A stretch of DNA of 64,000 nt, taken from a virus. The stretch lies in the IMG/VR virus record IMGVR_UViG_3300034072_001149, positions 1 through 64,000 of that record. One strand, written 5' to 3'. Shown here in pieces: positions 9,761 to 13,593 of this stretch (its first letter is position 1; each line of letters starts with the position of its first letter). The translations under genes and the position numbers were made by a program. Below the pieces are notes generated by a model that was given only the letters and a program-made list of their open reading frames with translations, was not told the origin of the DNA and ran no database searches.

Positions 9761-9779
9761 GATCTTTACTCCTTTTTTC

Positions 9780-9930
9780 GGCTCGTGAAACCCACGAGCA
9801 AGGTTGGCCCTGAAAACAAGGCCGGTAGTTCGATCTAAGTAGTGGTGACGACCACTCAGCTCACAGCTCACGCTGTGATTGAGAAACGGACGGTTTTCTC
9901 TAGGTCTACAAAGCGGACGGGCTTTGTAGT
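9780..9930 (-). ncRNA. Hairpin array in the Ro60 leader (two CCGUCC loops, one CGUC loop, one GUGA loop)
   Basis: Stems at 9841-9856, 9861-9878, 9881-9900 and 9906-9929. Confidence 0.55.
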
Positions 9931-9943
9931 ATCGCCCTTATAA

Positions 9944-10240
9944 CTAGGCTTGGTTTGCCTCGTCAAGCGTCTTTTTCAGAACTTCAAGAACTTCTTCCTT
10001 GCTTCCAAAAGTGCCGCTCAAAGAGATCGGATTTGTGATGGCAACATGGATTACCGTGGGGCTAAAGAATCTGATGATACCATAGCCCTCGAAGCGACCG
10101 TTTCCGGGCTTGCGGTTATTCCATCGCGTTCGATACTTTCCACCTACACTGTAGACGTCGTACCGATAATTATTTTCGATGCCCAGCAGATCCGAGACAT
10201 CCTGGTAGAACGATTCTACCTCACTGATTTCCTTTTCCAT
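9944..10240 (-). CDS. Hypothetical protein with its own TTGACA promoter
   Basis: 98 aa (RTRWNNRKPGNGRF); -35 TTGACA at 10274-10269. Confidence 0.65.
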   Translation of the reverse strand: MEKEISEVESFYQDVSDLLGIENNYRYDVYSVGGKYRTRWNNRKPGNGRFEGYGIIRFFSPTVIHVAITNPISLSGTFGSKEEVLEVLKKTLDEANQA

Positions 10241-10274
10241 ACTCTATTTAAACATAGATATGGAAATTTGTCAA

Positions 10275-11097
10275 CCTATGGGTTGTCGGGTAGAACGGAC
10301 TCTACCCGACGGGTTTTTCCACAACCATATAGGCTGTATCGGAATACAAGTAAAGGTCTCGTCCGTGAGACCACCTCCTGCGTCGTCAGTAACATGGCAC
10401 TTTGGACCAAATGGCCCGAAGAGCAAGTGTTGAGGTGGACCGGGCTAAACTATCAAGATAGAAATCTTGATACCAACTCCCTAGGCAGACCGAAGTCTGT
10501 TTCCACGTTACTGAGTCAGCGTGTTAGGTTACTTTATCTGTAAGATAACCCACCATCATCGGCTCTCGATCTACTTATCAGAGATTCTCCGGAGACCGTA
10601 GTCTCCGGAGAGGCAAGATAGCTAGGTATCTACCAGCGCCATCCCGCGGGGCTTGAAATCAGGACTCGGTCTGATCACACCTACAGAGACCTATGCCTTT
10701 CAGTCTCAACGCCATTAGGGAAAGTAACTCTAGACTCCCTATATATCCGATCAAGGTAGTTAAGGAGGGGCCTAATCTAGGTCTTATGACCGAAGCCTGC
10801 CTACCCTCTTTATTCGCTTCACTGACTTTGGCTTCGTCAACAAAACTACTAAACCTCACCCACGAACGCTCGAGCAAGGGAGAGGGGTGATCCTTCCCTC
10901 TACATAACTACCATGTGGGACCGAAATCCCAGATCACTAGGGACACGGCTAAGCGCCCCGTCGCATTTTACCAGGTCAATTCCTGGACTTTTGTTCTCCT
11001 CCGGTGCCGTCCGGCAGATACCTTTATGTGTCAGCACACACCCCAGTCGCCAAGAACAAAATATATGGGTTCAGGGACCGAAATCCCTCCATGCCGT
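10275..11097 (-). ncRNA. Large structured non-coding RNA upstream of Ro60
   Basis: No credible ORF. Promoter TTGCGA-N17-TAGAAC at 11132-11104. Many UUCG/UACG/GNRA-capped stems on the minus strand, and long-range helices such as 10755-10762 with 10905-10912. Confidence 0.7.
10421..10565 (-). ncRNA. Y RNA-like domain (Ro60-binding bulged helix)
   Basis: 5' GAGCCGA pairs with 3' CUUGCUC with a bulged C. UGAUGGUGG pairs with CCACCUCA, then GGUUAUC follows, as in bacterial Yrl RNAs. No clear T-arm. Confidence 0.65.
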
Positions 11098-11178: not shown

Positions 11179-13593
11179 TTAGTTAAACAGTGCGCCTAGA
11201 TCGTCGCCGGTCGCAACGATACGAACTGGAATGTAGATGAATTCAATTGCCTGGACTGGCTGAATAGCAATATCCACCCAAAGTTCCTGACGATCAATTC
11301 TCTCCGGAGTGTTGTTGGTTTCATCGCAAACTACGATGAAGTCATACAAGCCGCGGAGACCTACGAGGTCTGCTAGAAAGCGCTCGAAGGTTGTTCGAAC
11401 AGAGTCACGTGTCTGGAAGTCGTTTGGCTCAAAGAGAAACGGCTTACTGATATTATCCAAGTTGTAGCGTAGGTAGTTGACCAAACGAGCAACGTTGATA
11501 CGATCAAGAGAAGTTTCTAGACTGTGGCGCGTTTTCTGACCATAAACAACCAGACCGCGATTTGGAATAAACGCGATTGGGTTGATCTTGTTGGAATACA
11601 GGATATCACGCTGGCCAGGGTTCAAAATAGCAGCCTTGAATTCACCTTCTTCGTCAAGGTATCCAACGCTAGAAGCGTTATTGACCAGACCACGAGTGAA
11701 ACCAGCAGGAGCCAACCAAGGATAGCTGATGCTATCGCTGTAAGCCAATGTTCTAAGAGCAATGGTCGATGGTGGAACCATGATCTCATTACCATCAACG
11801 TTGGTGCTCAAGCCCCAAGGATAATACATACCAACATATGGGTTGAAAGTGCTAACTCCATTTTCGGTATTACCGTTACCTGAATTTGTAGCAAATTCAG
11901 TGATATCTGCTCCAGTTGGCTTCAGTCTAATAGGAGTGTCACCAACAATAAACGCTACTTCCTTCATGTCCGTGTTCAAAGTAACCATCTCATCGATGAG
12001 TTCAATGTAACCAGGAGCAGCTAGGAGGTTGAAGTAAACTGTTTCAGCACGAATATCTTCATTACCCGAAATAGTAGCAGCAAGCGACTTAACGATCATC
12101 TGACGCTGAGCACGGCGACCAAAGAATGGAACACCATTGGTCTGGAAGCCTGAAACGTTTGACCACTTACCAGCCGAAGCATTATATTGCTTGACGTCGT
12201 TGGTAGACTCAGCCAAGTCGAATAGTCTCATACCTTCAGCATAGTTGAGCGGCTCAGTAGTGTCAGCTTCACCAAAAGCGATACCGTCGATTGGGTCAAT
12301 GTTGTTCTCAACATTGATAGCTTTCCAAAGACCGCCAACTCGACGATACATCTTAGGATAGTTCTCAAGATCGGAAGTATCAACCCAAAGGTCGTTTTCA
12401 ACCAGTGGAGCACCAGTAGACTGAACAGTAGGAGCCGATCCTAGAAGGATTACACCATTTGCGTCAGTTGCTGGATAAACAGTGCGATATGGACGCCATT
12501 CACCGCCTTGGTTTACCTTGACATTGACAACCAAATTCTGGTTGTTGAACCAAAGCGTGCCGTCATCAGCAGTGTTGGTTGGTTCAGAAGCGCCAGCTTC
12601 TTCACCAAGTGGCTCCCAGACGTCAGTGTTTTCGTTATAACGCAGGAATTCAAAAACAGCGCGAGTGTCTTCGTGGCTCAGGAATACTGATCCAGCAACT
12701 CTGGTTAGAGTGTTGACCTTAGACAGGCTGTAGATAGGAACAAGCGTTTCAGCCCAAACACCGGTGCCAACATTATATGTCTTCAACAGCCAAGTTGCTG
12801 CTGCGCTGATGCTAGTGATAACGTCTGGTGTGTTGAGAACCAATACGTCACCAATGTTACCAGTTGCTGGACGGAAAGTGCCATACTTTAGTTCAAGCGA
12901 TGCCGAAGAACCTTCAGCAACCTTGGCAGTTTTCCATTCAGGAGTTCCAACAACAAACCATTCATCAGCAATACGCTGGTAAAGGACCTTCTTTGAATAT
13001 AGGACCACCATGGCAAAATCACCATCAGCGGAATCAACTAGAAGAGGAACCTTCTGGCCAGCAATGATTTCTGGTGCCGCACTATCAAGGGACGATTCGT
13101 CTTCTACGATCCAAAGATCGCGTTCTGTCCATTCGCTACCGGTGTATTCATAGATACCCCATGTGTTGTTCTGGGTATCAAGCCAGTTCGTGCCATTGGT
13201 AGCTTCAGCACGTGGCTCAGAGGCCTGTGGCATTAGCTGACCGTAGTCGATCGCAGCACGAATAACAAAGGCACGGTTAGCAATACCAAGATACTGGTAA
13301 GCAGCATGAAGACCGTATTCGTTGAGTTCGTAACCATGAACGGCAGAGCCATTTCTGGTGTAGAAAATTGGGTTGCCAAACGTCTGGAGGAGTTCGCGCT
13401 GGCTCGTGATAGGGTAGAGCTTGTTCGCGTTCTCGGGCAAGGTGCCTTCGGCCACGCCGCTACCCGAAGGCAGTGACTTGAATTCGTGCGTGCCGATAAT
13501 AATCAGCGGAACAGTGCCTTCACCAGCCGTTGCGTAGTTGGATTCGTCGGTAACGGTAACAGATGTACCGGGCGACACTAGAGGATATACCAT
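11179..13593 (-). CDS. gp18: Tail sheath protein (T4 gp18-like) with large insertion
   Basis: LVSPGTSVTV, ITSQRELLQTFG, PWLAPAGFTRG, GQKT, LDRINVARL, FEPND and EFIYIP motifs. Confidence 0.95.
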   Translation of the reverse strand: MVYPLVSPGTSVTVTDESNYATAGEGTVPLIIIGTHEFKSLPSGSGVAEGTLPENANKLYPITSQRELLQTFGNPIFYTRNGSAVHGYELNEYGLHAAYQYLGIANRAFVIRAAIDYGQLMPQASEPRAEATNGTNWLDTQNNTWGIYEYTGSEWTERDLWIVEDESSLDSAAPEIIAGQKVPLLVDSADGDFAMVVLYSKKVLYQRIADEWFVVGTPEWKTAKVAEGSSASLELKYGTFRPATGNIGDVLVLNTPDVITSISAAATWLLKTYNVGTGVWAETLVPIYSLSKVNTLTRVAGSVFLSHEDTRAVFEFLRYNENTDVWEPLGEEAGASEPTNTADDGTLWFNNQNLVVNVKVNQGGEWRPYRTVYPATDANGVILLGSAPTVQSTGAPLVENDLWVDTSDLENYPKMYRRVGGLWKAINVENNIDPIDGIAFGEADTTEPLNYAEGMRLFDLAESTNDVKQYNASAGKWSNVSGFQTNGVPFFGRRAQRQMIVKSLAATISGNEDIRAETVYFNLLAAPGYIELIDEMVTLNTDMKEVAFIVGDTPIRLKPTGADITEFATNSGNGNTENGVSTFNPYVGMYYPWGLSTNVDGNEIMVPPSTIALRTLAYSDSISYPWLAPAGFTRGLVNNASSVGYLDEEGEFKAAILNPGQRDILYSNKINPIAFIPNRGLVVYGQKTRHSLETSLDRINVARLVNYLRYNLDNISKPFLFEPNDFQTRDSVRTTFERFLADLVGLRGLYDFIVVCDETNNTPERIDRQELWVDIAIQPVQAIEFIYIPVRIVATGDDLGALFN

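What the first reader, a model, noticed from the sequence alone, without database searches (positions are those of the whole stretch)
9841..11016. Network of mutually complementary hairpin loops spanning an intervening ORF
Seen on the minus strand: loop GUCCGU (10295-10300) is the exact complement of loop ACGGAC (10361-10366). Two CCGUCC loops in the Ro60 leader (9888-9893, 9915-9920) complement GGACGG at 11007-11012. UCGUCA (~9846-9851) complements UGACGA (~10383-10388). Known: kissing loops drive multimerisation of phi29 pRNA and large ncRNA cages. Inference: the RNA may oligomerise, or dock onto the Ro60 mRNA leader to control translation, with ORF 9944..10240 inserted in the middle.
Basis: partly seen in the sequence, partly recalled or inferred. 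Interest (0 to 1): 0.7.

Follow-up and report, generated by a model that had tools for sequence, protein, structure and literature searches.

The report
One real kissing loop near phage Ro60
Of three proposed loop-to-loop RNA pairings in front of a giant phage's Ro60 gene, one is real and kept by matching mutations but lies inside a 107-base three-hairpin domain, the two said to bridge the small gene are not conserved, and that gene is a genuine protein gene.

Summary
All six hexamers are at the stated coordinates, and the hairpins are real.

**Pair 1 (supported).** Loop ACGGAC (10366-10361) pairs with loop GUCCGU (10300-10295). Six related lineages keep the complementarity through compensatory changes: GUUCGU:ACGAAC, GUCCGU:ACGGAC and GUCCUU:UAGGAC. 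The stems differ between lineages. The pairing ties hairpins 1 and 3 of a 107-nt three-hairpin domain just 3' of a Y-RNA-like module.

**Pair 2 (not supported).** Two of the six GGACGG bases lie in a covarying stem. The ACGGCA loop occurs in one clade only. Ten other lineages carry the CCGUC leader hairpins with the usual GUGGCN loop.

**Pair 3 (refuted).** UCGUCA is a private variant of a CCGUC(A/U) loop. UGACGA lies in a linker that comes and goes independently of that hairpin.

**ORF98.** It is present in all 27 related loci examined. It is under purifying selection (dN/dS 0.03-0.25) and has its own conserved promoter-like motif.

**Also real.**
- A removable four-hairpin leader cassette shows CCGUC in three loops, with no conserved RNA partner.
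- A loop-closed copy of the putative Ro-binding bulged helix abuts the Ro60 ribosome-binding site.

**Limits.** Function is inferred and there are no expression data. The scan has noted uncatalogued structured RNAs beside phage Ro60 genes in other genomes.

The parts
10355..10372 (-). K1 hairpin: 6-bp stem, loop ACGGAC (10366-10361). First kissing partner.
   Evidence: Stem covaries, 4 of 6 pairs with changes on both sides.
10318..10343 (-). M hairpin between K1 and K2, with a conserved GAU bulge (CC-GAU-AC...GU-GG).
10285..10310 (-). K2 hairpin: 10-bp stem, loop GUCCGU (10300-10295). Second kissing partner.
   Evidence: Outer stem 100% paired with 5 covarying pairs. Kissing helix 97.9% paired with 2 covarying pairs.
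10379..10388 (-).
10419..10572 (-). Y-RNA-like module. The 5' strand GAGAGC-C-GA and the 3' strand ACUU-GCUCU can form a bulged helix. Internal hairpins covary.
   Evidence: Weak Rfam RF00019 match, 16.8 bits, E 3.9. Conserved in 10 lineages. Motif compared with PMC4201824.
11001..11014 (-). Hairpin CCGG-ACGGCA-CCGG of the large upstream RNA.
   Evidence: The loop is GUGGCN in all other lineages.
9906..9929 (-). Leader cassette hairpin 1, loop CCGUCC (9920-9915).
9881..9900 (-). Leader cassette hairpin 2, loop ACCGUCCG (9894-9887).
9861..9878 (-). Leader cassette hairpin 3, GUGA tetraloop.
9841..9856 (-). Leader cassette hairpin 4. Loop region UCGUCA here, CCGUC(A/U) in most of the other cassette lineages.
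9778..9801 (-). Loop-closed copy of the bulged helix (UU-GCUCGUG / CACGAGC-C-GA), 5 nt upstream of the Ro60 Shine-Dalgarno GGAG (9772-9769).
   Evidence: Sequence conserved in all loci. Two stem pairs covary.
9944..10240 (-). ORF98, a conserved small basic protein of unknown fold with the core motif RTRWNNRKPGNGRFEGYG (most positions invariant across 31 homologues).
   Evidence: No family or fold match.
10245..10274 (-). Conserved promoter-like motif TTGACA-N18-TAAATA ending 4 nt before the ORF98 ATG.
   Evidence: Present in 26 of 27 loci. Not called by the consensus sigma-70 scan.

Best explanation
The stretch is not one RNA split by an ORF. It is a row of separable modules in front of a jumbo-phage Ro60 gene:
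- a large pseudoknotted RNA;
- a Y-RNA-like module;
- a 107-nt three-hairpin tail domain (K1, M, K2);
- a promoter-like motif followed by ORF98;
- an optional four-hairpin cassette;
- a loop-closed copy of the putative Ro-binding helix next to the Ro60 ribosome-binding site.

It most likely forms within one molecule and locks the three hairpins into a compact fold at the 3' side of the Y-like RNA. I infer that this fold serves as a protein-docking module or a nuclease-resistant end of a Ro60-Y RNA particle.

The CCGUC loops form a separate, dispensable cassette. I infer that they are recognised by a protein rather than by the upstream RNA.

Shown here: the hairpins, the covariation, and the independence of the modules. 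Inferred: that the contact forms within one molecule, and every functional role.
For: - K1:K2 complementarity holds in every lineage that has both six-base loops. The forms are GUCCGU:ACGGAC (window, L070), GUUCGU:ACGAAC (L002, L067/68, L072), GUUCGU:GCGAAC (L076, L084) and GUCCUU:UAGGAC (L077-79). Loops taken from different lineages mismatch.
- The count of structure pairs gives 97.9% of kissing-helix cells paired, 2 of 6 pairs with changes on both sides and one G-U variant. For the whole three-hairpin-plus-kissing structure (28 pairs), 0 of 500 shuffles reach the observed values, and slid controls drop to 35-46% paired.
- The Ro60 tree and the Y-module tree place the window clade and L077 apart among GUUCGU lineages. 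That implies at least two independent compensatory events.
- Synonymous divergence between window and L002 is 0.84, yet 10 of the 12 loop bases are unchanged and the other two changed together.
- G-U pairs in the stems fit the minus-strand RNA.
- Complementarity stops at the loop edges.
- Modules are independent. The cassette occurs without the tail domain (L071, L075, L083, L087, L088, L008, L011, L085). The tail domain occurs without the cassette (L067/68/72, L005-7).
Against: - Only about six independent lineages carry the kissing form, so the statistics are thin.
- In L076 and L084 the K1 loop can close to a CGAA tetraloop.
- In L067 and L072 thermodynamic folding prefers an alternative pairing of the K1 loop with the M hairpin.
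- L005, L006 and L007 have the same domain with UUCG-type tetraloops and no complementary partner, so the contact is not essential to the domain.
- The functional role is pure inference.
Confidence: 0.68

Rival explanations
1. The loops form a network that lets the upstream RNA oligomerise or dock onto the Ro60 leader across ORF98 to control translation.
For: Six-base complements exist in the window. In the window clade and in L077, the K1 loop is also complementary to the cassette hairpin-2 loop, with duplex energies of -8.3 and -7.3 kcal/mol. Higher-order Ro60-Y RNA particles are reported for phage phiLo (PMC12135203).
Against: GGACGG at 11012-11007 is half stem and confined to one clade. 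Ten cassette-bearing lineages have GUGGCN there instead, and L085/86 have the cassette with no upstream RNA. No GACGG or GGACG site is conserved within 1.6 kb of the Ro60 start. UCGUCA is CCGUCA in a 98% relative with the linker unchanged. K1 mismatches hairpin 2 in L002, L076 and L084.
Confidence: 0.1
2. Everything is chance, including K1:K2. The loops are conserved only because they form stable UNCG-like hairpins, and the complementarity is coincidental.
For: One exact 6-mer loop complement arises in 9 of 60 shuffles. K2 holds a UUCG or UCCG core, and relatives L005-7 have a plain UUCG tetraloop there.
Against: Two positions changed on both sides while staying complementary, in lineages that the trees place apart. 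L077's GUCCUU has no UNCG core yet still matches its own K1.
Confidence: 0.15
3. The matching hexamers are DNA half-sites of an inverted repeat, bound by a dimeric regulator near the ORF98 promoter.
For: K2 ends 10 bp before the -35-like TTGACA. Symmetric half-sites would also co-vary.
Against: The half-sites are about 60 bp apart and sit exactly in the loops of two RNA hairpins whose stems covary with G-U pairs. In L006 and L007 the domain is separated from the ORF98 promoter by an extra gene.
Confidence: 0.03

Closest known systems
Loop-loop (kissing) tertiary contacts inside folded RNAs, such as the L2-L3 contact of purine riboswitches or the D-loop/T-loop elbow of tRNA (my own knowledge)
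   Same: Two neighbouring hairpins pair through their loops by Watson-Crick pairs, and the pairing is kept by compensatory changes.
   Different: There is no enclosing junction helix, no ligand pocket and no tRNA features. ARAGORN finds no tRNA and Rfam gives no match. The helix is a full 6 bp.
phi29 pRNA and the ROOL/GOLLD RNA-only assemblies (bioRxiv 10.1101/2024.12.08.627333)
   Same: Complementary loops on one RNA could in principle link copies head to tail.
   Different: No Rfam match to ROOL or GOLLD and no packaging-motor context. Nothing here prevents pairing within one molecule. Multimerisation is untested.
Bacterial and phage Ro60-Y RNA modules: YrlA/YrlB (PMC4201824) and Thermus phage phiLo Yrl1/Yrl2 (PMC12135203)
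   Same: Structured RNAs carrying a CGA(A)-type motif lie directly upstream of a TROVE + vWA Ro60 gene, with more than one Y-like element per locus.
   Different: No tRNA-like domain and no match to any Rfam YrlA model. I found no description of the tail domain with its kissing loops or of the CCGUC cassette in the two Y RNA papers read here.
Multi-hairpin protein-titrating RNAs such as CsrB/RsmZ with GGA loops (my own knowledge; analogy only)
   Same: Several adjacent hairpins each display the same short loop motif.
   Different: The motif is CCGUC, there are only three copies, they lie in an mRNA leader, and no binding protein is identified.

Membership tests
RNA kissing-loop interaction | Both partners lie in hairpin loops | tested here: met
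   K1 and K2 loops are unpaired in the fold of most lineages, and their stems covary.
RNA kissing-loop interaction | Watson-Crick complementarity kept by compensatory change | tested here: met
   97.9% of cells paired and 2 of 6 pairs changed on both sides. Loops from different lineages mismatch.
RNA kissing-loop interaction | Physical formation of the contact | not testable with these tools
   Needs chemical probing or mutant rescue.
   Ten cassette-bearing lineages lack GGACGG at the homologous site, and L085/86 have no upstream RNA.
   L070 has CCGUCA with the linker unchanged. The linker and hairpin 4 occur independently.
ROOL / GOLLD large ornate RNAs | Match to the family covariance model | tested here: not met
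   No hit at gathering score or at E up to 10.
Y RNA (Rfam RF00019) | Score at or above the gathering threshold | tested here: not met
   16.8 bits against a threshold of 38, E 3.9.
Y RNA (functional class) | Encoded next to Ro60 and carrying the GNCGA(A)-type motif in a bulged terminal helix | tested here: met
   GAGAGC-C-GA with ACUU-GCUCU at 10572-10419. Ro60 is TROVE + vWA. The helix itself is invariant, so there is no covariation for it.
YrlA-type Y RNA | tRNA-like T and D arms | tested here: not met
   ARAGORN finds no tRNA-like gene, and no Rfam match to a tRNA or YrlA model at E up to 10.
Protein-coding gene (ORF98) | Purifying selection and conserved homologues | tested here: met
   47 homologue clusters, 16 invariant residues, dN/dS 0.03-0.25.

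The most novel reading that the evidence does not exclude
The K1 loop is a switch. It pairs either with K2 on the Y-like RNA or with the matching loop of cassette hairpin 2 in the Ro60 leader. Alternatively it links copies head to tail. Either way it would couple the amount or assembly state of the Y-like RNA to Ro60 translation or to higher-order Ro60 particles. Two lineages that the trees place apart (the window clade and L077) moved K1/K2 to sequences that also fit their own hairpin-2 loop.
Probability: 0.12. Interest if true: 0.75.

Novelty: new variant of a known kind. Interest (0 to 1): 0.42.

Why it matters
Phage Ro60-Y RNA particles are thought to recruit host PNPase, and little is known about how their RNAs are built. 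This locus offers a small, mutationally testable tertiary contact (six base pairs, with natural compensatory variants) in a domain attached to a Y-like RNA. It also offers two candidate control elements in the Ro60 leader. The work also removes two attractive but unsupported long-range pairings and shows that the intervening ORF is a real gene.

Tried and rejected
- **Phage records.** blastn found no phage record similar to the region.
- **Pattern scans.** Scans for the Y-module pattern gave two real new metagenome relatives (L067, L068), re-found five known IMG/VR contigs, and otherwise hit coding sequence by chance.
- **CCGUC elsewhere in the genome.** A scan of the 159-kb record for CCGUC-type loop hairpins found no other site with a stem as long as the two here (9 and 6 bp), although a few loose groups of short-stem hits were not inspected. 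I did not treat it as a genome-wide operator.
- **Local partner for CCGUC.** No conserved GACGG or GGACG partner lies within 1.6 kb of the Ro60 start.
- **Partner for the UUCG-type K2 loop.** L005-7 have no partner at homologous positions.
- **ORF98 identity.** Pfam and PHROGs gave nothing. The AlphaFold2 model has pLDDT 78, and Foldseek against the PDB gave no match with E at or below 0.001.
- **Promoters and terminators.** The consensus sigma-70 scan calls no promoter in the region. K1 looks terminator-like only in the window and L002.
- **Anti-SD pairing.** CUCC:GGAG pairing suggested by RNAalifold is invariant in relatives but degenerate in the window (CUAC), so I did not adopt it.

Full report
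**Setting.** The window is the first 64 kb of a 159-kb fragment of an uncultivated virus record, estimated 34% complete. Related contigs reach 435-470 kb. The minus strand carries, in order:
- a tail sheath gene (11179-13593);
- 938 nt without a credible ORF;
- a 98-codon ORF (10240-9944);
- a 183-nt leader;
- a Ro60 gene with TROVE and vWA domains (9760-8027).

Rfam at gathering score finds only a group I intron elsewhere in the window. A permissive search gives one weak Y_RNA match at 10564-10418. ARAGORN finds no tRNA.

**The observation.**
- ACGGAC and GUCCGU are true 6-nt hairpin loops and exact complements.
- The two CCGUCC motifs are in hairpin loops.
- GGACGG is not a loop. Its two 5' G residues belong to the stem 11014-11011/11004-11001, which is 100% paired in 15 sequences and covaries at all four pairs. 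The loop is ACGGCA.
- In the window's fold, the ends of UCGUCA pair with each other.
- UGACGA lies in a linker.

In the minimum-energy fold of the 1418-nt stretch, one loop pair shares an exact 6-mer complement. Sixty dinucleotide shuffles give a mean of 0.15, and 9 of them reach one. With one flanking base allowed, the count is 4 against a mean of 0.65. The single sequence does not show a network beyond chance.

**Relatives.** I collected 27 related loci, about 20 of them distinct lineages. The sources were IMG/VR, JGI metagenomes, and ENA and Logan assemblies. Ro60 identity ranges from 99% down to about 71%. Synonymous divergence in ORF98 between the window and its nearer relatives is 0.84-1.5, so unconstrained bases should be close to randomised.

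**Pair 1 is supported.** The two hairpins (K1 at 10372-10355, K2 at 10310-10285) flank a third (M, 10343-10318). Together they form a 107-nt domain directly 3' of the Y-like module. The loop pairs by lineage are:

| Lineage | K2 loop | K1 loop |
|---|---|---|
| window, L070 | GUCCGU | ACGGAC |
| L002, L067/68, L072 | GUUCGU | ACGAAC |
| L076, L084 | GUUCGU | GCGAAC |
| L077-79 | GUCCUU | UAGGAC |

Loops taken from different lineages mismatch. On alignment A8 the kissing helix is 97.9% paired, with two pairs changed on both sides (C-G to A-U, and A-U to G-C). All three stems also covary. For the whole 28-pair structure, no shuffle in 500 reaches the observed values, and slid controls fall to 35-46% paired.

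A Ro60 protein tree and a Y-module tree both put the window clade among GUUCGU lineages and put L077 elsewhere. The changes therefore arose at least twice. Complementarity stops at the loop edges.

Four caveats apply.
- About six lineages is a small sample.
- In L076 and L084, K1 can close to a CGAA tetraloop.
- In L067 and L072, folding prefers an alternative pairing.
- L005-7 carry the domain with UUCG tetraloops and no partner.

**Pair 2 is not supported.** ACGGCA occurs only in the window, L070 and L002. Seventeen other lineages have GUGGCN in that loop. Ten of them carry the CCGUC leader hairpins: L071, L075, L076, L077, L083, L084, L087, L088, L008 and L011. L085 and L086 carry ORF98, the cassette and Ro60 in another genomic setting, with no large RNA upstream. 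No GACGG or GGACG site is conserved within 1.6 kb of the Ro60 start. In the same clade an otherwise invariant U at 11049 became C. The loop change may therefore reflect a contact inside the large RNA.

**Pair 3 is refuted.** Hairpin 4 has CCGUC(A/U) in most of the other cassette lineages, including CCGUCA in L070, which is 99% identical in Ro60, while the linker there is unchanged. The linker (UGAUGACGCA in most) belongs to the Y-plus-tail unit. It is present in lineages without the cassette and absent from many lineages that have it.

**ORF98 is a gene, not an insertion.**
- It is present in all 27 loci.
- It has 47 homologue clusters and 16 invariant residues around RTRWNNRKPGNGRFEGYG.
- dN/dS is 0.03-0.25.
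- A TTGAC-N16-18-TAAATA motif ends a few bases before its ATG in 26 of 27 loci. The generic sigma-70 scan does not call it.
- It has no family or fold match.

**What the leader holds.** A four-hairpin cassette (9929-9841) is present in 14 sequences (about 13 distinct lineages) and cleanly absent in others. Its stems differ widely. Loops 1, 2 and 4 keep CCGUC, and hairpin 3 is usually a GNRA tetraloop.

Downstream, all loci share a hairpin (9801-9778) with the same arrangement as the Y-like module. The helix GCUC/GAGC is followed by a bulged C and then G-U and A-U pairs. Here the helix is closed by a loop and ends 5 nt before the Shine-Dalgarno sequence. Two of its pairs covary. The GNCGAA-type motif is the proposed Ro60 contact in bacterial Y RNAs (PMC4201824). 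Two Y-like RNAs upstream of a phage Ro60 gene are described for phiLo (PMC12135203). Binding of Ro60 to its own leader is my inference and is untested.

**Mechanism.** I commit to the following. K1 and K2 kiss, most likely within one molecule. This compacts the tail domain of the Y-like RNA, perhaps as a docking surface or as protection for the 3' end. The cassette is a separate accessory, probably protein-binding. The contact is supported by covariation. The roles are inferred.

**An open point.** In the window clade and in L077, K1 is also complementary to that lineage's own hairpin-2 loop. It is not in L002, L076 or L084. This keeps a switch or trans-docking reading alive at low probability.

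**Standing.** The finding is a new structural detail within the known Ro60-Y RNA setting. Notes from this scan report other uncatalogued RNAs with kissing loops or pseudoknots beside phage Ro60 genes in other genomes. I did not test those.

Noticed in passing
window 10937-10932 with 10892-10887 (minus strand): A pseudoknot in the large upstream RNA. GUGAUC pairs with GAUCAC in the loop of the hairpin closed by stem 10899-10896/10886-10883. It is 100% paired in 15 sequences, and four pairs changed on both sides (GGAGUU:AACUCC in L008).
   Followed up: yes
window 11140-10748 (minus strand): A large RNA conserved in nearly all relatives that have the sheath gene. RNAalifold predicts 82 pairs, 51 with compensatory changes, and there is no Rfam match.
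   Followed up: partly
window 9801-9778 (minus strand): A loop-closed copy of the Y-like bulged helix sits next to the Ro60 Shine-Dalgarno sequence. A similar GCGAGCCGAAAAGGAG arrangement occurs upstream of a 52%-identical Ro60 in L017. It may be an autoregulatory site.
   Followed up: partly
window 10572-10566, 9837-9830 and 10752-10748 (minus strand): The motif (U)AGAUCGA(A) recurs at module boundaries: before the Y-like module, before the leader helix, at the 3' end of the large RNA core, and after the tail domain in L006 and L007. In L002 and L067 it overlaps a TAAATAG promoter-like motif.
   Followed up: no
window 10274-10240 (minus strand): The conserved TTGACA-N18-TAAATA motif ends 4 nt before the ORF98 ATG and there is no Shine-Dalgarno sequence. 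ORF98 may be translated from a leaderless mRNA.
   Followed up: partly
window 11049 and 11010-11009 (minus strand): Three otherwise invariant bases changed together in the window/L070/L002 clade only (U to C, and GU to AC in the hairpin loop). This hints at a tertiary contact inside the large RNA.
   Followed up: partly
L006 2836-3540 and the matching place in L007: An extra 234-codon ORF lies between the tail domain and ORF98 in two relatives. It shows that the modules are shuffled as units.
   Followed up: no
L085 and L086: ORF98, the CCGUC cassette and Ro60 occur together in a different gene neighbourhood, without the sheath gene or the large RNA.
   Followed up: partly
L014, L025, L031, L038, L048 (upstream of Ro60): More distant Ro60 phage loci carry Y-like RNAs directly upstream. 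Some have tRNA-like T and D arms. Others have GCCGA(A)...GUGGGUUAUC, like the module here.
   Followed up: no
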